Positions 23,784 through 31,048 of a DNA stretch of 32,000 nt are shown here, in pieces; position 1 is the first letter of the stretch; each line of letters starts with the position of its first letter. A model generated the notes under the pieces. It worked only from the letters and a program-made list of their open reading frames with translations, had not been told where the DNA came from and made no database searches. The stretch is from Erysipelotrichaceae bacterium MTC7 (GTDB taxonomy: Bacteria > Bacillota_I > Bacilli_A > Erysipelotrichales > Erysipelotrichaceae): assembly GCA_001695645.1 (NCBI GenBank), contig LVZN01000067.1:30001-62000 (forward strand), in the 5' to 3' direction. Both the position numbers and the translations under genes were made by a program.

Positions 23784-23874
23784 TGCTATTATGAACTAGG
23801 TTTAATTCTAGGTTTTTGGATACTCCAACCATCTACTTGGAACTGAACGACAATGACAATAGGAGGAACATAAA

Positions 23875-24141
23875 ATGTTATTAAAATCAGAAAAACAAGC
23901 AATTATGAAAGAATACGCAACAAAAGAAGGAGATACAGGTTCTCCAGAAGTACAAGTTGCTGTATTAACAGAAGAAATCAACCGTTTAACAGACCACATG
24001 AAAGAACACAAACATGACTTTCATTCACAACGTGGACTTATGCAAAAAGTTGGTAGACGTCGTAACTTACTTAAATACTTAAAAAACAAAGACTTACAAC
24101 GTTACACTACATTGATTGGACGTTTAGGATTACGTAAATAA
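23875..24141 (+). CDS. rpsO: 30S ribosomal protein S15
   Basis: 88 aa ([51 protein letters not shown]). SD AGGAGG is upstream. Confidence 0.97.
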
Positions 24142-24148
24142 TTCAACT

Positions 24149-24178
24149 AAACTGGAATTCGTTCCAGTTTTTATTTTG
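24149..24178 (+). terminator. rpsO intrinsic terminator
   Basis: AACTGGAA-ttcg-TTCCAGTT is a perfect 8-bp stem followed by TTTTATTTT. Confidence 0.85.
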
Positions 24179-24302
24179 CATAGAGTTTACGTTTTCCAAT
24201 TTAGATCACATAGGATACAAAGACACTCGATAAGACAAAGAATATGACATCTGTAATACGTTTATAGTGTAATAGAGATGCCAATATACCCAATAGCGTA
24301 TA

Positions 24303-24330
24303 GATACTACTAAGCAGTAGTGTCTTTTTT
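24303..24330 (+). terminator. Second terminator-like hairpin plus T-run on the plus strand, inside the agrB remnant
   Basis: GATACTACT-aagc-AGTAGTGTC is a 9-bp stem with one G-U pair, followed by T6. No plus-strand gene is seen between it and the rpsO terminator. Confidence 0.35.
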
Positions 24331-24332
24331 GT

Positions 24333-24752
24333 TTAATAGGTTTTTTCACTTTTAGAGAGTATTATATTTTTAAATGTAACAGCTTTGTATTTGTACAAAC
24401 TAGTAAAGATTACTGCATACACCATCAACAAAGTAAAGGGATGTAGTTCCAAATAGTTACTACCTGCTCCACAAATAAGTGCATTGACTAAAGAGAAGAG
24501 TAAACACGTATATTTGTTTTTGAAATGGAATCCACCCATGTTTGTTCGCAAAGAGAATGGGAAAAGTTCAAATAGCACACTTGCACTAAAAATATCCAAT
24601 AGAAAGGATAGTAAGGCCAAAAGCACTAAGAAAACACTATAGGAGCGTAAAACAATTAGACTGTATGCAAAGAGAACAGCATCATAGTGACCTACGGTGT
24701 TTGCGAACAAATGTTGAATAACTTCTATGGGAATACATTTTCTTTTATGCAT
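24333..24752 (-). CDS. agrB: AgrB-family (accessory gene regulator B, AIP-processing peptidase) protein, apparently truncated by an in-frame TAA
   Basis: The motif LRTNMGGFHFKNKYTCLLFS places His76 and Cys83 with the same 7-residue spacing as the catalytic His77/Cys84 of S. aureus AgrB. The protein is multi-TM. The ORF is only 139 codons, but the frame stays open for 43 more hydrophobic codons after the TAA (to 24204). Confidence 0.65.
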   Translation of the reverse strand: MHKRKCIPIEVIQHLFANTVGHYDAVLFAYSLIVLRSYSVFLVLLALLSFLLDIFSASVLFELFPFSLRTNMGGFHFKNKYTCLLFSLVNALICGAGSNYLELHPFTLLMVYAVIFTSLYKYKAVTFKNIILSKSEKTY

Positions 24753-25170
24753 GGCTTGTTACATTCCTTTAATTCGCTAACGGGTTTGTTGCATAAAGGT
24801 GAAAGCAAAGCCGCATTAGAAGAAGCGAAGCAAATCACGACACAGTTTGTAAAAAATTCAACATCCTCCATTCAAATTTTTATATTTGGAATATTATTAT
24901 TGTTTCGAAAATGGATTTCATACAATCAAAGAATATTGAGAACGAAAAATGTTTGGGATTTACGTATTTTATTTCCTTTCTTCGGAAACAGCATTTGCAT
25001 TTTTTGATACATTATTCTCTATCACAATTGAAGCATCTCTACCAGATGACAACAGGCGGATTATTATTGAGAAAACCAAGCAATTTACTTTTATGTGAAG
25101 ATTATCCCATTTCTACTTCTACTACTATCATAATTTATTTTTTTGAAAAAACTAGGGGTAGTGGACAAGA

Positions 25171-25230
25171 TACAGTAAAATCGGACAAAATATATAAAAA
25201 TCGACAAAAAACGCAAAAAAATGCGAAAAT
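25171..25230. repeat. Six helically phased A-tracts (about 10-bp period), predicted intrinsically curved DNA
   Basis: Reading in 10-nt steps gives tacagtAAAA / tcggacAAAA / tatatAAAAA / tcgacAAAAA / acgcAAAAAA / atgcgAAAAt. It includes the near-repeat AAAATCGGACAAAA / AAAATCGACAAAAA. The tract lies 70-125 bp upstream of ATG 25298. Confidence 0.7.
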
Positions 25231-25297
25231 CATCCGTTTTCTATTCCTTTTTCTATCCGATAAGTTAAAATGAAATAATACTTAAAGGGGTACTTAC

Positions 25298-26455
25298 ATG
25301 GAAAAACGGTTACTGCAAAACAAAAGATTTTTGGAAATTGTTTCCATAATTGAAGAGAAACAATTTGCACAAAACGGAAAATGGGAATGGGATCATACTA
25401 TGAGTCACTTTCAACGTGTCGCAGATTATATAGAAGATATACTACGTCAATTTCACGTTGATGAAAGAATGGTTACTCTAGGAAGAGTTGCTGGTCTTTT
25501 ACATGATGTAGGATTGAGTGTTGCAGATACGAATCACGCAAGTATTGGAAGTACATTATTTGTTGAATGTATTGATGATCTTGATTTACAGGATGAAGAA
25601 ATTGAGATTCTACGTTCTGCGATTATCAACCACTCAAATGGAGAGTGTATTGATTCGTTAGTTAGTTTGGCTTTATTGTTAGCAGACAAAATGGATGTCA
25701 CATACCATCGTACAGTATATGCTTCAAAGCTTGATCCAATGCTCACAGAACTCCAAAAGATTCAAAAGGTTGAAGTCCAATTCACGAATGAAGAATTGAT
25801 CTTATATTATTATGCAACTTCATCTTTGGACTTTGATGCATTACAAGCTTGGGATAAAATTTATACAATTCCAGAAAAAGTAGCACAGTATTTAGGAAAA
25901 GAATTTGTGTTACATGTTGTAGATGCAGATGAAATCTATTTGGTAAACCCTTCAATCGAGGACAAAGAAGCGGTTATGAACTACCGTAGTTTCATGTTAG
26001 AAAACGGGAATACTATTATACATGGTTCCAATTTCTTACAAGATTATGAAGTTTATGAAGATTGGCTACAAAATGATATTGCTATGCGTAGTGACACAAC
26101 ATGTCCTGAGGGACTAGTAAGCGCAACAACATTTTTGATTTATGCACAAGATACTTTTGTGGGTATGATCAACTGTCGTCATCACCTAAATGATTACTTG
26201 GCTACTTATGGTGGTCATATTGGCTATGGTATACATCCAAATCATCGAAAAAAAGGCTATGCAAAAAAAGCACTCCAACAAGTGTTAGATATGTACAAAC
26301 ATGATTTACATTTAGATGAAGTTCTACTGATCTGTGATAAGAAAAATAGCGCATCACAAAAAGTCATCACTTCTTTCCCACATCGCTTTGATGGGGAAGT
26401 AATCGATGTAAATCAACGCACTTTACTTAGATACTTCGTGTACACAACTAAGTAG
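25298..26455 (+). CDS. HD-domain phosphohydrolase fused to a GNAT-family acetyltransferase
   Basis: The N-terminal part has H33/H37...H69-D70 (LLHDVGLS, nt 25502-25507)...HSNGE...LLADKMD. The C-terminal part, from about residue 215, has GNAT features (GMINCRHHLNDYLATYGGHIGYGIHPNHRKKGYAKKAL...LICDKKNSASQKVI). SD AAAGGGG is upstream. Confidence 0.75.
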   Translation: MEKRLLQNKRFLEIVSIIEEKQFAQNGKWEWDHTMSHFQRVADYIEDILRQFHVDERMVTLGRVAGLLHDVGLSVADTNHASIGSTLFVECIDDLDLQDEEIEILRSAIINHSNGECIDSLVSLALLLADKMDVTYHRTVYASKLDPMLTELQKIQKVEVQFTNEELILYYYATSSLDFDALQAWDKIYTIPEKVAQYLGKEFVLHVVDADEIYLVNPSIEDKEAVMNYRSFMLENGNTIIHGSNFLQDYEVYEDWLQNDIAMRSDTTCPEGLVSATTFLIYAQDTFVGMINCRHHLNDYLATYGGHIGYGIHPNHRKKGYAKKALQQVLDMYKHDLHLDEVLLICDKKNSASQKVITSFPHRFDGEVIDVNQRTLLRYFVYTTK

Positions 26456-26462
26456 AAAATAG

Positions 26463-26486
26463 AAAAGGCAGAAAAATCTGCCTTTT
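26463..26486. terminator. Bidirectional terminator between the HD-GNAT and XRE genes
   Basis: AAAAGGCAG-aaaaat-CTGCCTTTT is a perfect 9-bp stem with A/T flanks. It overlaps the XRE stop codon. Confidence 0.75.
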
Positions 26487-26931
26487 ATGCTTTCTTCCAA
26501 CATTTTCCTAAGATATCTTTGAGTACAAGTAAACTATCCAATTGATTCAAATCATATCGCTTTTGCATATCCCGTAACAAGACCAATAATTGTTTTTCAT
26601 ATACTTCTACATCAACAAGTTGTGGATATACATTGAGTATTGGATACTTTTTACCCCATGCTTTTGTCCAATCTATTTTTTCATCTTTATGATCATCCCT
26701 TTCAAGAATCACTTTCTCAACTTCCTTTTGTTCGATATCTTGACTAATTAGTTCATCTAATGACAAACCAAAGAGTAGAGCCAATTTCTTTGCTTGGTAA
26801 ATATCTGGTATTGTTTCATCTAACTCCCACTTGGATATAGTTTGGCGACTTACACCTAATTTTTCGGCAACTGCTTCTTGTGAGAGTCCTTTTCTTTTTC
26901 TTGCTTGTAATATTTGATTTCCTAAATGCAT
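26485..26931 (-). CDS. XRE-family helix-turn-helix transcriptional regulator with an uncharacterised C-terminal domain of about 85 aa
   Basis: The HTH is LGNQILQARKRKGLSQEAVAEKLGVSRQTISKWELDETIPDIYQAKKLALLFGLSLDELI. The start was set at ATG 26931, 8 nt downstream of GGAGG (the track start GTG 26946 lies upstream of that SD). Confidence 0.85.
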   Translation of the reverse strand: MHLGNQILQARKRKGLSQEAVAEKLGVSRQTISKWELDETIPDIYQAKKLALLFGLSLDELISQDIEQKEVEKVILERDDHKDEKIDWTKAWGKKYPILNVYPQLVDVEVYEKQLLVLLRDMQKRYDLNQLDSLLVLKDILGKCWKKA

Positions 26932-27294
26932 ATGTACTACCTCCACTACATTTAGTATAAAAGAAAGAGATGAAACTTACTACCAAGCAAAATAGGCAAT
27001 TGTGCAAGAAAAGCGAACAAATCCTAGCAAAAGATGTAAGTTTTACTATCGAACAGACAGACTAAATATAAAATCAAGATTGAAAATTAATTGATGCAAG
27101 AAATCACGTTCACCATATAATATTTAAGTTTTTATTTGTGTGTTGTTTGATTGCACATTTTATAGTGTTGGTGATGTACAAACACATTTTTCCATTATTT
27201 GTCATATTTGCTTTTTTGTAGTTTGTTTAAATATAATCTTAATTGCTACTTTTATCTAGTTTTAAAGATTGACAGGTAGTATAACAAAGATGAA

Positions 27295-28674
27295 TTGCTT
27301 AAACTATTAGTAACAAATATGGAATACTTGTTACCAGAAGTGTTGAATGAATGGTCTAATTATAGAAATGAATCTTTTATTAATGCTACTAATAATGAAG
27401 AATCATTTAAACAAATTCAGAAGAATAACCAAAATTCAATCGCAACTAGATTTCTTTTAGAATATGTTGCAGCATCGAAGATACAAGGCTCAAAACATGT
27501 CCAAAAAACAGATATGGAACATTTACTATCTATTTGTATATTAATAATTGAGTGGGCACAAAGAAGTGATCAGTTTAAATATAATTTGGTGAAGTCAAAT
27601 CTTACAATGCTTAAATCCAATAGAATTGGAGTGAAAGAGAGCGACTTCTATGAGATTAATCGAGCAATGCATAATTCACAAAAATTCTATTTAAATTTTG
27701 ATGATAAAACTCAACCAAACTTCAATATGTTTAGCGAAGAAGTTAACAGAAAAAGTAATGAGCTCTTAGTGGATGCATTTACAGAAATGTTTGGGTTTAG
27801 TAATGTGGAATTTAACAGTACAATATCGTTAATCTGCAATATATTTTATGGTCATTTTAATACGATTATTGTTGGTGATAAAGAGGAACTAATTAATACT
27901 TTGGAATCATCACCAGATGCAGAACTGTCGAGTGTTGTAATAAGGAAAGTTATAGATGTCTTGTTATCTTTAGAGAGAAATGATTTCTTAGAACCTCCAA
28001 AAGGTAATTCAAAATTTGATGTATTACCATGGAGATTTAACAGGGATCTTTCATTCATAAGAAAACCAATTGTCGAGTATGATAACAAGTTGTATTTTGG
28101 TGTTAGAAATATAATGTATGCAAAAACATACTTGTATAATTTGATTTTCAGGGGAAAACTCAAAACAAAAAATAAGAAAATGAAAGTATTTATGTCTGAG
28201 ATACGCAATCAAATTGGTAAAGATTTCAACATGAGCGTCGCGGAAATGATACGACAAAATCCGTTACTTGAAGTTTTTACCGAAGTTAAAAAAATAGGAA
28301 AGAAAAAAATCACAAATGATAACGGAGATGATCTAGGTGATATTGACATCTTAGTAATCAATAAAAGCAAGAAGAAAATTTTTGTTATTGAAACAAAAGA
28401 ATTTTCAGATTCAAGAAATCCCTATGATATTGCAATGGAGATTAAGAGTATATACGGTGAAGGGAAGTCATTTCAAAGTAAACACTTTAATAGAACAAAG
28501 TGGATAATAGACCATAAAAAAGAAATAATTGATTTTTATTCTTTAAAAAAGGGAAGTTGGAAAATTGAGCCATTGTTTATTTTTTCCGAATATTTAATAA
28601 GCAAGCACTTAATAAAGAACAGTAAAATTAAATGTATTTCCTTAGGTGAAATTACCAAAAAATCCTTTACTTAG
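27295..28674 (+). CDS. Hypothetical protein with a C-terminal PD-(D/E)xK / NERD-like nuclease motif; N-terminal ~340 aa of unknown family
   Basis: Long uninterrupted ORF in very AT-rich DNA. GDIDILVINKSKKKIFVIETKEF (nt 28339-28398) gives D-x-D...E-x-K in a beta-strand context. The start is uncertain (TTG 27295 or ATG 27319, neither with a good SD). A candidate promoter is TTGCTT (27208-27213), 18 nt, TATAAT (27232-27237). Confidence 0.6.
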   Translation: MLKLLVTNMEYLLPEVLNEWSNYRNESFINATNNEESFKQIQKNNQNSIATRFLLEYVAASKIQGSKHVQKTDMEHLLSICILIIEWAQRSDQFKYNLVKSNLTMLKSNRIGVKESDFYEINRAMHNSQKFYLNFDDKTQPNFNMFSEEVNRKSNELLVDAFTEMFGFSNVEFNSTISLICNIFYGHFNTIIVGDKEELINTLESSPDAELSSVVIRKVIDVLLSLERNDFLEPPKGNSKFDVLPWRFNRDLSFIRKPIVEYDNKLYFGVRNIMYAKTYLYNLIFRGKLKTKNKKMKVFMSEIRNQIGKDFNMSVAEMIRQNPLLEVFTEVKKIGKKKITNDNGDDLGDIDILVINKSKKKIFVIETKEFSDSRNPYDIAMEIKSIYGEGKSFQSKHFNRTKWIIDHKKEIIDFYSLKKGSWKIEPLFIFSEYLISKHLIKNSKIKCISLGEITKKSFT

Positions 28675-28831
28675 TTCAATAGCAGAAGTAGAATTTAGAA
28701 AAATATTGACACTTTTAACGTTTTTTTGTTAGCAGTACAGCTGAAGTCAATTTATTTTTTATTCAAAATTATCGTTAATCTCTACTTACACCGATTTGAA
28801 TCCCTTTCTTGTTTCGTTTGTTGTCTATTTA

Positions 28832-28840
28832 TGTTATTAT
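28832..28840 (+). promoter_or_regulatory. Possible extended -10 element (TGtTATTAT) for pnp
   Basis: TGTTATTAT lies about 30 nt upstream of the pnp ATG. No good -35 element is seen. Confidence 0.3.
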
Positions 28841-28870
28841 GGATTCATATTGAAAGAAGAGGTATTAGAC

Positions 28871-31048
28871 ATGGCGAAAGAAGTATTTCGTTTAGATTTC
28901 CGCGGTCGGGGGATCGTGGTAGAAACTGGTGAATTAGCCAAACAAGCTGGTGGATCTGTCTTAGTTAGATATGGTGATACGGTTGTATTATCAGCAGCTA
29001 CTGCAAGTTCACAAGCAAAAATGGATTTAGACTTTTTCCCACTTACGGTAACGTATGAAGAAAAGTTGTACTCAGTAGGGAAAATCCCTGGTGGATTCTT
29101 AAGACGTGAAGGGCGTCCATCTGAAAAAGCGACATTAACAGCGCGTATGATCGATAGACCAATCCGTCCATTATTTGCGGATGGATTCCGTAATGAAGTA
29201 CAAGTTGTAAATACAGTACTATCAGTTGACCAAGAAGCATGTGCAGATATGACTGCAATGTTGGGTGCATCCTTATCATTATGTGTAAGTGATATTCCAT
29301 TCAATGGTCCAATTGCTGGAGTTAACGTTGGTTACATCGATGGTGAATACATCATTAACCCAACTCCGGAACAACAAGAAGTTTCATTAATTGACCTTGC
29401 TGTTGCAGGGACAAAATATGCAGTTAACATGGTTGAAGCAGGTGCTAAAGAAGTAACTGAAGAAGAAATGTTAGAAGCGATTATGTTTGGACACGAAGCA
29501 ATTAAAGAATTGGTTGCATTCCAAGAAGAAATTATCGCAAAAGTTGGAAAAGAAAAACGTGAAATCGAATTATATGTAGTTGATGAAGCTGTCAATGCAC
29601 TTGTTCGTGAAAAGTTTGAAGCAGAATTACGTGCTGCCGTTTCCATTGAAAAGAAATTAGAACGTTATGGAAAAATCGATGAAATCACTGCTGAAGCAGT
29701 TGCGATGATCGAAACACAAGAATTTGAAAACGATAGTGAAAAAGCAAAAGCTGCAAAACAAGCAAAACAAATTTGCCACAGTATAGAAGCTGATGAAGTG
29801 CGTCGTTTAATTATTGAAGATAAAGTACGTCCAGATGGTCGTCAAATTACAGAACTACGTCAATTGAACTCACAAGTTGATTTACTACCTAGAGTTCATG
29901 GTAGTGCAGTCTTCACACGTGGAGAAACACAAGTATTAAGTGTTACTACTTTAGGAGCACTTAACGATGAGCAAATCATTGATGACTTGAGTGAAGTGGA
30001 TCGTAAACGTTTCATGCACCACTACAACTTCCCTCCATACTCAGTAGGGGAAACAGGAAGAATGGGTGCGCCTGGACGTCGTGAAATTGGTCACGGTGCA
30101 TTAGGCGAACGTGCCTTACTGCAAGTGTTGCCAAGTGTTGATGAATTCCCATACGCAATTCGTGTAGTTGCTGAAGTACTGGAATCTAATGGTTCATCAT
30201 CACAAGCATCAATTTGTGCAGGTACAATGTCATTGATGGCAGCAGGGGTACCAATTAAAGCACCAGTTGCTGGTATTGCAATGGGTCTTATCATGGATGA
30301 AGACAACGAAAAATATACAGTATTAACTGATATTCAAGGTATGGAAGACCACTTTGGAGATATGGACTTTAAAGTTGCTGGAACACCTAAGGGAATTACA
30401 GCGCTTCAAATGGATATCAAAGTTACGGGTATCACAAGAGATATCTTTAAAGAAGCACTTGCACAAGCAGGTATTGCAAGAGCACAAATCTTAGAAAACA
30501 TGATGGCAACAATTTCTGAAGTTCGTCCTGAAGTTTCTAAATATGCACCTAAGACACACATCATGTACATCAATGTAGATAAAATCAAAGATGTTATCGG
30601 ACCTGGTGGAAAAATGATTAACGAAATCATTGAAGCATGTGACAATGTTAAAATTGACATTGAAGACGATGGACGCGTGATTATTTATCACTCAGACCAA
30701 AATGCTATCAATAAAGCGGCAGAAATGATTATGGATATCACGAAAGAAGCTAAAGTTGGTGACATCTATGATGCAAAAGTTGTTCGTATTGAAAAATTTG
30801 GTGCATTTGTGAACTTATTTGGTAAAGTTGATGGATTGCTTCACGTATCAAAAATCAAACACGAACGTGTAGAAGATGTAAACAAAGTGCTTAAACTTGG
30901 TGATACGATCAAAGTTAAAGTAACAGAAATTGACGACCGCGGTCGTATCAATGTTTCTGCAAAAGCACTTATTGAACGTCCAAAACGTGAAGAAGTAAAA
31001 AAAGTAGAAAAAACAGAAGAAAGTACGGAATCAACGGAAACAAAATAA
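28871..31048 (+). CDS. pnp: Polyribonucleotide nucleotidyltransferase (PNPase)
   Basis: The start was trimmed to ATG 28871 ([40 protein letters not shown]). Two RNase PH domains, a KH domain ([11 protein letters not shown]) and an S1 domain ([20 protein letters not shown]) are present. SD-like AGAAGAGG is upstream. Confidence 0.97.

What the first reader, a model, noticed from the sequence alone, without database searches (positions are those of the whole stretch)
27295..28674. Orphan AT-rich 459-aa protein with a C-terminal PD-(D/E)xK/NERD-like motif: candidate undescribed nuclease, possibly a single-gene defence function
Seen in sequence: a long clean ORF sits in the most AT-rich part of the window. 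The protein is rich in K, N, I, F and S. Neither possible start (TTG 27295, ATG 27319) has a convincing SD. Near the C-terminus, GDIDILVINKSKKKIFVIETKEF (nt 28339-28398) gives an acidic pair on one hydrophobic strand followed by E-x-K on the next. That is the core signature of PD-(D/E)xK nucleases and closely resembles the NERD pattern (xIDhlvi....ifviExK). I cannot assign the preceding ~340 residues to any family; notable strings are LLEYVAASKIQGSKH and DVLPWRFNRDLSFIRKPIVEYDNKLYFG. Inference: a variable N-terminal module plus a C-terminal PD-(D/E)xK domain, encoded as a lone gene in a cargo island beside a divergent XRE regulator, parallels known single-gene anti-phage nucleases such as the Shedu DUF4263 proteins. 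I cannot show homology to any of them.
Basis: partly seen in the sequence, partly recalled or inferred. Interest (0 to 1): 0.72.

Follow-up and report, generated by a model that had tools for sequence, protein, structure and literature searches.

The report
Truncated remnant of Upx defence gene
The "orphan nuclease" ORF is the last 38% of a known anti-phage gene, Upx: it has lost the front 62% that senses phage, so it is most likely a dead remnant and not a new defence system.

Summary
The ORF (27295..28674) and its GDID…ExK motif are real. It is not an undescribed family.

- **Family.** Profile, structure and pairwise searches all place it in Upx, a known ~1,240-aa single-protein anti-phage nuclease with a solved structure (9wuf).
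- **Only the 3' part is present.** The open frame matches positions 763-1234 of a 1,240-position full-length Upx profile (E=8e-108). It aligns without gaps, at 43% identity, to residues 747-1209 of an intact 1,210-aa Upx (L095).
- **No true start.** Homology begins at the first codon after an in-frame TAG (27277-27279). It runs through both candidate starts, which align to internal Upx residues and lack a ribosome-binding site.
- **Missing part is gone.** Nothing in the 32 kb encodes the missing sensor and middle domains.
- **Not a natural class.** Of 65 informative loci sampled by the C-terminal motif, 61 are intact full-length Upx, 3 are broken and 1 is similarly truncated.
- **Published experiments.** Upx truncations do not defend.
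- **Context.** The fragment lies in a 4.6-kb strain-specific insert between rpsO and pnp, next to a decaying AgrB gene.

Verdict: a 5'-truncated Upx remnant, and ordinary. Residual nuclease activity is possible but untested.

The parts
27280..28674 (+). Open frame homologous to the C-terminal 38% of Upx (stop TAG 28672-28674). This is the 5'-truncated Upx remnant.
   Evidence: It matches positions 763-1234 of a 1,240-position full-length Upx HMM (E=8e-108, 358 bits). It aligns without gaps at 43% identity to residues 747-1209 of the intact 1,210-aa Upx in L095. Foldseek finds 9wuf at E=1e-16.
27277..27279 (+). In-frame TAG that marks the 5' homology boundary (the truncation junction).
   Evidence: The alignment starts at the first codon after this stop. 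Reading through it adds 0.7 bits, and the upstream 45 aa score no better than shuffles.
27295..27321 (+). The two candidate start codons (TTG 27295, ATG 27319). Both are internal to the Upx homology.
   Evidence: NKDELLKLLVTNMEYLLP aligns to FNKNQLLKLLIAQIETLLP of L095, and the annotated Met pairs with an internal Ile. SD pairing is -3.1 and +0.6 kcal/mol, against a median of -9.9.
28027..28044 (+). PWRFNR motif, a hallmark of the Upx family.
   Evidence: P237, W238 and R242 are invariant and R239, F240 and N241 are >=90% conserved in A1. The motif aligns to PWRFGR of SeUpx. Coordinates were verified.
28336..28347 (+). G-D-I-D. The second Asp (D343 counting from ATG 27319) corresponds to the catalytic D1161 of SeUpx.
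   Evidence: It is invariant in A1. The alignment to 9wuf is, and the catalytic residues come from PMC13099982. The model places it on strand 342-348.
28390..28398 (+). E-T-K, corresponding to the catalytic E1176-x-K1178 of SeUpx.
   Evidence: E358 and K360 are invariant. They align to IECK of 9wuf. The model places them on strand 353-360.
26932..27279 (.). AT-rich intergenic DNA (GC 0.279) upstream of the junction, unrelated to Upx.
   Evidence: A six-frame HMM scan and tblastn with L095 and other Upx N-terminal parts find nothing. The scan finds one - strand promoter-like match here, facing the XRE gene, and none on the + strand; matches over 23800-28900 are no more frequent than in shuffles.
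26485..26931 (-). Divergent XRE-family HTH gene (148 aa from ATG 26931) with a strong SD. It is a neighbour and is not shown to be linked to the fragment.
   Evidence: HTH_3 at E=1.5e-18. SD pairing is -10.7 kcal/mol. It is unrelated to the HTH gene beside the truncated Upx of L008.
24173..28802 (.). Strain-specific 4.6-kb insert between rpsO and pnp. It holds an AgrB remnant, an HD-GNAT gene, the XRE gene and the Upx fragment.
   Evidence: Homology to Breznakia blatticola stops at 24172 and resumes at 28803. The rpsO-pnp gap has a median of 91 bp in 64 relatives. Island GC is 0.311, against 0.366 for the rest of the window.

Best explanation
The ORF is the 3' remnant of a Upx anti-phage gene. 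A full-length Upx is a ~1,210-1,270-aa monomer with three parts: an N-terminal sensor domain, a middle domain, and a C-terminal helical plus PD-(D/E)xK nuclease domain. I infer that such a gene was once part of cargo DNA inserted between rpsO and pnp. A deletion or replacement then removed everything 5' of the codon equivalent to residue ~747-790. That is the N-terminal domain, the middle domain and the first ~75 residues of the C-terminal domain.

What remains is an open frame that begins right after a stop codon. It has no native start codon and no ribosome-binding site. It still carries an intact nuclease core (D343, E358, K360, counting from ATG 27319).

Upx defence needs the N-terminal domain, which recognises the phage terminase ATPase, together with the C-terminal nuclease. 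The fragment therefore most likely confers no phage defence. It is probably untranslated or only weakly translated. If it is made, the expected activity is at most a weak, unregulated Mg2+-dependent 3'-5' ssDNA exonuclease, like the isolated SeUpx C-terminal domain.

Shown here: the homology, the truncation point, the absence of the 5' part, the rarity of such forms, and the island context. Inferred: the loss of function, the lack of expression, and the history of the deletion.
For: Family:
- NCBIfam Upx_antiphage at E=4e-22, profile positions 813-1205 of 1240.
- PADLOC Upx at E=4e-15.
- Precomputed Pfam PF28173 'Upx-like'.
- PDB 9wuf by sequence, at E=4e-6 with the single protein and 1.6e-51 with the family profile.
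- The AF2 model (pLDDT 79.7) has 9wuf as its only significant Foldseek match (E=1e-16, TMq 0.59).

Fragment:
- The ORF matches full-length HMM positions 763-1234 only.
- It aligns without gaps to residues 747-1209 of the intact 1,210-aa Upx in L095, starting at the first codon after TAG 27277 and running through both 'start' codons.
- No remnant of positions 1-762 exists anywhere in the window.
- The truncation maps to SeUpx residue ~790, inside the C-terminal domain (715-1272) and not at a domain boundary.
- There is no SD.

Not a natural class:
- 107 of the top 150 representatives are >=1,150 aa, and the rest form a flat length continuum.
- Every short relative on an informative contig is a piece of a full-length gene: nonsense, frameshift, IS insertion or a mis-called start.
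- In a sample drawn by the C-terminal motif, 61 of 65 informative loci are intact full-length, 3 are broken and 1 is 5'-truncated.

Function:
- Deleting the NTD, or expressing single domains or partial constructs, abolishes SeUpx defence. The isolated CTD has only weak ssDNA nuclease activity and no detectable DNA shift (PMC13099982).
- The N-terminal sensor is predicted (AlphaFold 3 models) to bind the terminase ATPase domain, and co-expression screens show terminase activates Upx (PMC13601566).

Context:
- The island also holds a decaying AgrB gene, with a 1-bp indel polymorphism.
Against: - The 464-codon frame is intact in very AT-rich DNA, and all 12 family-invariant residues, including the catalytic ones, are retained. 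That is what selection would produce.
- Its mean identity to full-length Upx (0.26) is only slightly below that of its nearest low-GC relatives (0.27-0.29), so there is no clear sign of relaxed constraint.
- Two of the 16 other long ORFs in the window also lack a good SD.
- Expression was not measured.
- A second strain carries an identical ORF. This is uninformative, because the surrounding non-coding DNA is equally invariant.
- The rest of the genome could not be searched for a partner that encodes the N-terminal part.
Confidence: 0.82

Rival explanations
1. The truncated Upx C-terminal domain is expressed and kept as an autonomous, sensor-less nuclease. It might be transcribed from the 348-bp intergenic region and gated by the divergent XRE repressor. 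It could act as a constitutive or stress-induced nuclease in defence, plasmid restriction or toxin-like growth arrest.
For: The ORF is intact and all catalytic and invariant residues are kept. The model folds confidently over the nuclease core, with pLDDT around 90 for most of residues 150-360. The isolated SeUpx CTD keeps partial ssDNA nuclease activity in vitro. The ORF is arranged divergently with an XRE gene. It is no more diverged than its neighbouring relatives.
Against: Both starts are internal to the homology and lack an SD. The truncation falls inside the CTD, not at a domain boundary. Partial Upx constructs give no defence. Only 1 of 65 sampled loci is similarly truncated, and at a different position, so there is no recurrent architecture. 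No conserved XRE-Upx pairing was found. The ORF's intactness is explained by the recent common ancestry of the segment, because the non-coding DNA is equally unchanged.
Confidence: 0.12
2. It is one half of a split Upx. The N-terminal sensor and middle domains are encoded elsewhere in the genome and assemble with this C-terminal piece in trans.
For: Several public gene calls make Upx look like two adjacent genes.
Against: Every such case turned out to be one reading frame interrupted by a TAG or TAA stop or by a frameshift, not a designed split. Nothing in the 32-kb window, or in the further ~7 kb downstream in L093, encodes the N-terminal part. The break lies inside the CTD.
Confidence: 0.04
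3. It is a new NERD-like or Shedu-like PD-(D/E)xK protein, unrelated to Upx, with its own variable N-terminal module.
For: A weak NERD match at E=0.008 over residues 347-430. The motif resembles the NERD pattern.
Against: The NERD score of 17.1 bits is below the 22.1-bit gathering cutoff. There is no DUF4263 hit in Pfam and no Shedu hit in PADLOC. The whole length, including the 'unassigned' 340 residues, aligns to Upx at E=8e-108.
Confidence: 0.01

Closest known systems
Upx (single-protein anti-phage PD-(D/E)xK nuclease; SeUpx structure PDB 9wuf; NCBIfam NF042954; Pfam PF28173 'Upx-like'; PADLOC Upx)
   Same: The window ORF is homologous over its whole length to the Upx C-terminal helical and nuclease region. 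It keeps the family-invariant PWRFNR motif and the catalytic D/E-x-K residues. Its predicted fold matches 9wuf.
   Different: It has only the last ~38%. It lacks the N-terminal domain (the terminase sensor, also described as an atypical nuclease), the middle domain and ~75 residues of the C-terminal domain. It has no native start or ribosome-binding site. It scores 77 bits against the 1,900-bit equivalog cutoff. It is at most 43% identical to any known Upx.
Intact full-length Upx in locus L095 (VOFL01000095.1, 1,210 aa, GC 0.288)
   Same: It is the closest relative: 43% identity with no gaps over 463 residues, and a similarly low GC.
   Different: L095 is one open frame covering profile positions 5-1233, with its own ATG. 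The window has only the part equivalent to residues 747-1209.
Other decayed Upx genes (L008: 5'-truncated and IS3-split; L148: 5'-truncated at profile position 550; L001, L003, L004, L007, L091: nonsense or frameshift alleles)
   Same: They are sporadic, lineage-specific inactivation products of a full-length Upx gene, often in mobile or variable regions.
   Different: The breakpoints differ (profile positions 550, 628 and 763). The window copy has lost the 5' part completely instead of retaining it as broken frames.
NERD domain (PF08378) and Shedu (DUF4263)
   Same: The window protein has the PD-(D/E)xK restriction-endonuclease-like catalytic core that these families are also described as having (prior knowledge, not tested here), and its hydrophobic-strand D...ExK motif resembles the NERD pattern.
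   Different: The NERD match is below the family threshold, and there is no Shedu match. The resemblance rests on the shared catalytic motif only.

Membership tests
Upx (complete system) | A single polypeptide of ~1,200-1,290 aa with an N-terminal sensor/NTD, a middle domain and a C-terminal domain. | tested here: not met
   Only profile positions 763-1234 of 1,240 are present. There is no match to positions 1-762 anywhere in the window. The NF042954 score is 77 bits against a 1,900-bit cutoff.
Upx (homology of the C-terminal region) | Sequence homology to the Upx C-terminal helical and nuclease region, including the PWRFNR motif. | tested here: met
   E=8e-108 to the full-length Upx HMM. 43% gapless identity to L095 residues 747-1209. 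PF28173 is precomputed for this protein. The PWRFNR residues are invariant or >=90% conserved in the family alignment.
Upx (homology of the C-terminal region) | Catalytic residues equivalent to SeUpx D1161, E1176 and K1178. | tested here: met
   D343, E358 and K360 (counting from ATG 27319) align to these residues. They are invariant in 25 relatives.
Upx (homology of the C-terminal region) | Structural similarity to the solved Upx structure. | tested here: met
   Foldseek against 9wuf gives E=1.1e-16, probability 1.00 and TMq 0.59 over 457 columns. It is the only hit with E<=0.001.
Upx (complete system) | Anti-phage activity that depends on both the NTD and the CTD and is triggered by a phage protein. 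| not testable with these tools
   The literature shows that NTD deletion or partial constructs abolish defence (PMC13099982). By inference, the window fragment should be inactive in defence.
PD-(D/E)xK nuclease superfamily | Acidic residue(s) on one beta-strand and (D/E)xK on the next, within an alpha/beta restriction-endonuclease-like core. | tested here: met
   In the model, GDID is on strand 342-348 and ExK on strand 353-360, flanked by helices. There are weak Foldseek hits to restriction enzymes and VC1899. The SeUpx CTD was classified as canonical PD-(D/E)xK by its authors.
NERD (PF08378) | A score above the Pfam gathering threshold. | tested here: not met
   17.1 bits against a 22.1-bit cutoff, E=0.0082.
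Shedu (DUF4263) | A match to the DUF4263 or PADLOC Shedu models. | tested here: not met
   No hit at E<=1 in Pfam or PADLOC. The only PADLOC hit is Upx.

The most novel reading that the evidence does not exclude
A sensor-less Upx nuclease module has been captured as a working gene. Under this reading it is translated from an internal codon without an SD. It acts either as an unregulated or XRE-gated ssDNA exonuclease, or as an effector recruited by some other sensor. That would be a natural example of a defence protein being cut down to its effector domain.
Probability: 0.08. Interest if true: 0.4.

Novelty: new member of a known kind. Interest (0 to 1): 0.12.

Why it matters
It matters mainly as a correction. 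A gene that looks like a novel orphan nuclease is a decayed copy of a characterised defence gene, and it should not be counted or pursued as a new system.

Three minor points have wider use:
1. Annotation pipelines and protein databases hold many Upx pieces that look like independent 450-770-aa proteins. These can mislead domain-architecture surveys.
2. Upx genes are inactivated by nonsense mutations, frameshifts, IS insertion and truncation in several lineages. This fits the turnover, and possibly the fitness cost, of defence genes.
3. The fragment is a natural equivalent of the Delta-NTD/MD constructs tested on SeUpx. It could serve as a divergent Firmicute-type CTD for biochemistry.

Tried and rejected
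- **NERD or Shedu membership.** NERD is below threshold and Shedu has no hit.
- **A stand-alone 450-770-aa 'mini-Upx' family.** The 29 hits of the first search suggested this. It was rejected after mapping the loci: the short proteins are nonsense or frameshift pieces, IS-split, cut by contig ends, or have a mis-called start. The motif-based sample is 94% intact full-length.
- **A designed split gene.** The junctions are TAG or TAA stops or frameshifts inside continuous homology.
- **Alternative genetic code (TGA=Trp) as the cause of in-frame stops.** The interrupting codons are TAG or TAA in all but one contig-edge case.
- **Residual Upx sequence upstream of the ORF.** I tried six-frame HMM, read-through, shuffled controls and tblastn with the 43%-identical L095. 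None found anything.
- **Repeats or scars at the junction.** Only short matches of chance quality were found.
- **Promoter and terminator scan.** Promoter-like sites are no more frequent than in shuffles. No terminator was found after the ORF.
- **Phage or plasmid origin of the island.** No blastn match.
- **rpsO-pnp as a defence hotspot.** Other large inserts at this site are metabolic operons.
- **Selection test using a second strain.** It is uninformative. The whole 3.57-kb segment, non-coding DNA included, has 1 difference against 27 expected.
- **Conserved-site and relative-rate tests for decay.** The fragment is at the divergent edge of the family but close to its low-GC neighbours, so this is inconclusive.
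- **XRE link.** The window's XRE has no relative in the 80 rpsO-pnp loci beyond one marginal hit (34% over 61 aa, E=6e-4), and it is unrelated to the HTH gene beside L008's truncated Upx.
Full report
**Observation.** The ORF exists as described: 27295..28674 on the + strand, 459 aa from TTG. The public annotation of the same sequence (Erysipelotrichaceae bacterium MTC7, hypothetical protein A4S06_04945) starts at ATG 27319, giving 451 aa. The ORF has the lowest GC in the window, 0.284 against 0.366 outside the island. An open frame of this length at this composition is not a chance event (P about 1.5e-20). The quoted motif GDIDILVINKSKKKIFVIETKEF is at 28336-28404. Neither start has a Shine-Dalgarno site: pairing is -3.1 and +0.6 kcal/mol, against a median of -9.9 for 16 other long ORFs and -10.7 for the divergent XRE gene. 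Two of those 16 ORFs are equally weak, so this point supports the conclusion but does not decide it.

**Family.** Pfam gave only a sub-threshold NERD match (17.1 bits against a 22.1-bit cutoff) and no DUF4263. Three independent libraries pointed elsewhere:
- NCBIfam 'anti-phage protein Upx' (NF042954) at E=4e-22. Query residues 36-419 align to profile positions 813-1205 of 1,240.
- PADLOC Upx at E=4e-15.
- PDB chain 9wuf_A, the 1,272-residue cryo-EM structure of Salmonella Upx, at E=4e-6, rising to 1.6e-51 with the family profile.

All 29 homologues in the 5.8-billion-protein search carry the precomputed Pfam family PF28173, named 'Upx-like'. My local Pfam copy did not report it. An AlphaFold2 model built on the 25-sequence alignment (pLDDT 79.7, pTM 0.77) has a single significant structural neighbour, 9wuf (Foldseek E=1.1e-16, TMq 0.59). 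It also has weak hits to restriction enzymes, consistent with a PD-(D/E)xK core. In the family alignment G340, D341, D343, E358 and K360 are invariant, as are P237, W238 and R242 of the PWRFNR motif. D343, E358 and K360 correspond to the experimentally essential D1161, E1176 and K1178 of SeUpx.

**What Upx is (literature).** Upx is a single-protein defence system. SeUpx is a monomer with an NTD (1-515), a middle domain (516-714) and a CTD (715-1272) whose last ~150 residues are a canonical PD-(D/E)xK core. It is a Mg2+-dependent 3'-5' ssDNA exonuclease. The isolated CTD keeps only partial activity and gives no detectable DNA shift. Deleting the NTD or CTD, or expressing single domains or partial constructs, abolishes phage defence (PMC13099982). 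A second study shows that phage large terminases activate Upx. AlphaFold 3 models place the terminase ATPase domain in the N-terminal sensor. E1176A abolishes both defence and toxicity (PMC13601566). The two papers disagree on the trigger (gp16 or terminase).

**Fragment or stand-alone gene?** The first search returned only 298-773-aa proteins, which suggested a short family. Context showed otherwise:
- In L001/L002 the 464-aa homologue is preceded, in the same frame, by a 698-aa ORF covering the Upx N-terminus. A single TAG separates them, and the 75 codons after it still read as family sequence.
- L003 is three frame-shifted pieces.
- Streptomyces L004/L005 has one frameshift.
- Flavobacterium L007 has one in-frame TAG.
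- L091 is in four pieces.
- L006 is an intact 1,240-codon frame whose start was mis-called.
- L008 is 5'-truncated and split by an IS3 element.
- P0002 and P0004 start 16-20 nt from contig ends.

The interrupting codons are TAG or TAA in all but one contig-edge case, so this is not TGA recoding.

The exhaustive profile search of 1.84 billion representatives found 3,628 relatives. Of the best 150, 107 are >=1,150 aa (median 1,227). The other 43 are spread evenly from 470 to 1,150 aa, which is a fragment continuum and not a discrete class.

I then drew a sample by the C-terminal motif itself, not by protein length. Of the 81 loci, 16 are cut by contig ends. Of the 65 informative loci, 61 encode full-length Upx in one open frame, 3 are broken, and 1 (L148) is 5'-truncated in situ, at a different position.

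**The window copy.** Against an HMM of 60 full-length Upx proteins, the stop-to-stop frame 27280-28671 matches positions 763-1234 (E=8e-108, 358 bits). Nothing else in the six-frame translation of the 32 kb matches positions 1-762 (best E about 5).

The alignment begins at the first codon after the in-frame TAG 27277-27279 and runs through TTG 27295 and ATG 27319. The closest relative, an intact 1,210-aa Upx on a 3.2-Mb contig (L095, GC 0.288), makes this clearest. Window YNKDELLKLLVTNMEYLLP aligns to L095 FNKNQLLKLLIAQIETLLP, starting at residue 747. The alignment then continues without a single gap for 463 residues at 43% identity. The annotated Met pairs with an internal Ile.

Reading through the TAG adds 0.7 bits, and the upstream 45 aa score like shuffles. 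tblastn with L095 residues 1-746 finds nothing in the window. On SeUpx numbering the break is at about residue 790, which is ~75 residues inside the CTD and not at a domain boundary.

The ORF is therefore a 5'-truncated Upx that has lost about 62% of the gene, including the whole sensor.

**Is the remnant under selection?** It keeps all invariant residues. It also sits at the divergent edge of the family:
- It retains 81% of the >=90%-conserved columns, against a mean of 96% and a minimum of 81% for full-length proteins.
- It scores 358 bits, against 438-634 for the same region of held-out intact proteins.
- Its mean identity to full-length Upx is 0.26. That is only slightly below its low-GC neighbours (0.27-0.29) and above Flavobacterium (0.24).

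These comparisons are inconclusive.

A second strain (L093 and L094, which carry the same variants) has the identical 451-aa ORF in the same context. It differs from the window by 0.4-0.9% in the flanking core genes, and all 11 differences in pnp are synonymous. Across 25298-28870 (HD-GNAT, XRE, both intergenic regions and the Upx fragment) there is a single difference, at 27310, against 27 expected (P=4e-11). The non-coding DNA is as invariant as the ORF. This therefore shows recent shared ancestry of the segment, not purifying selection. It also removes the argument that an intact AT-rich ORF must be functional.

**Context.** Homology to Breznakia blatticola (PNPase 98% identical) ends at 24172, just after the rpsO terminator, and resumes at 28803. 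In 64 relatives the rpsO-pnp gap has a median of 91 bp, whereas here it is 4.7 kb. The insert contains four genes:
- an AgrB-like gene covering only profile positions 19-136 of 185, with a 1-bp indel polymorphism between strains;
- an HD-GNAT fusion;
- an XRE-family HTH gene with a strong SD;
- the Upx fragment, whose stop lies 128 bp from the right edge.

B. blatticola has a different 2.1-kb insert that includes GNAT-like ORFs by inspection. Other relatives carry metabolic operons at this site. So it is a general variable site, not a defence hotspot. The island has no phage or plasmid match. The XRE gene shows no link to Upx.

**Conclusion.** The nuclease-fold and defence-ancestry parts of the interpretation are right. 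The gene is not new, it is not NERD or Shedu, and it is not a complete lone system.

| Reading | Confidence |
|---|---|
| Remnant with no autonomous defence function | ~0.82 |
| Expressed, autonomous or XRE-gated sensor-less nuclease | ~0.12 |
| Half of a split system, with the partner encoded elsewhere | ~0.04 |

Interest is low.

Noticed in passing
window 24173-28802; loci L009-L088: The rpsO-pnp intergenic gap is a variable cargo site in Erysipelotrichaceae. Its median is 91 bp in 64 genomes, but it holds 0.9-8.5-kb inserts in several: this window's island; a 2.1-kb insert in Breznakia blatticola whose ORFs look like GNAT and other acetyltransferases by inspection (not profile-tested); an ornithine-fermentation-type operon in L074; and sugar-metabolism genes in L066.
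   Followed up: partly
window 24333-24752 (-): The AgrB-like ORF covers only Pfam AgrB positions 19-136 of 185, so its C-terminal ~50 positions are missing. It also shows a 1-bp indel polymorphism (24559) between the window and the second strain, where no gene is called. It is probably a decaying quorum-sensing gene remnant. No agrD, agrC or agrA was looked for.
   Followed up: partly
window 25298-28870 compared with L093/L094: The right 3.57 kb of the island has 1 difference between two strains, whereas the flanking core DNA differs by 0.4-0.9% (27 expected, P=4e-11). The left 1.1 kb of the island differs by 0.5%. This suggests that the HD-GNAT/XRE/Upx-fragment segment was acquired recently, or was homogenised by recombination, after the strains diverged.
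   Followed up: partly
window 25298-26455 (+): A 385-aa protein fuses a weak N-terminal HD-domain match (E=4.5e-4) to a C-terminal GNAT acetyltransferase (E=2e-14). It is followed by a bidirectional terminator-like hairpin (26463-26486) shared with the convergent XRE gene. Its function is unknown.
   Followed up: no
window 26485-26931 (-): The XRE-family protein has an N-terminal HTH (residues ~5-66), followed by a C-terminal extension of ~80 residues with no family match. Its best named match is phage RstR-type repressors, below cutoff. Apart from one marginal hit (34% over 61 aa, E=6e-4, L059), no homologue was found in the 80 related rpsO-pnp loci.
   Followed up: partly
loci L001/L002, L003, L004/L005, L007, L008, L091/L092, L105, L143, L148, L151: Upx genes are found inactivated in several unrelated lineages: single TAG or TAA nonsense codons, frameshifts, IS3 insertion and 5' truncation. 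In the motif-based sample about 6% of informative loci (4 of 65) are damaged. Public protein databases list the pieces as separate 370-840-aa proteins.
   Followed up: yes
locus L006 6216-9935: P0011 is called as a 645-aa protein, but the locus has one uninterrupted open frame covering Upx profile positions 6-1238 (1,254 bits). The deposited gene call starts far too late.
   Followed up: yes
literature (PMC13099982 and PMC13601566): The two 2026 Upx papers disagree on trigger and mode. One reports the ejection protein gp16 relieving MD inhibition, with direct immunity. The other reports the large terminase ATPase as sole activator, with cell-death-like toxicity. They also differ on whether the N-terminal domain is a nuclease or a sensor.
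   Followed up: no
Homologous-protein output compared: The word-indexed search returned 29 hits, none called as a full-length protein. The exhaustive HMMER search found 3,628 relatives, mostly full-length. The first result alone would have wrongly suggested a short stand-alone family. Also, the local Pfam library did not report PF28173, although it is precomputed for these proteins.
   Followed up: yes
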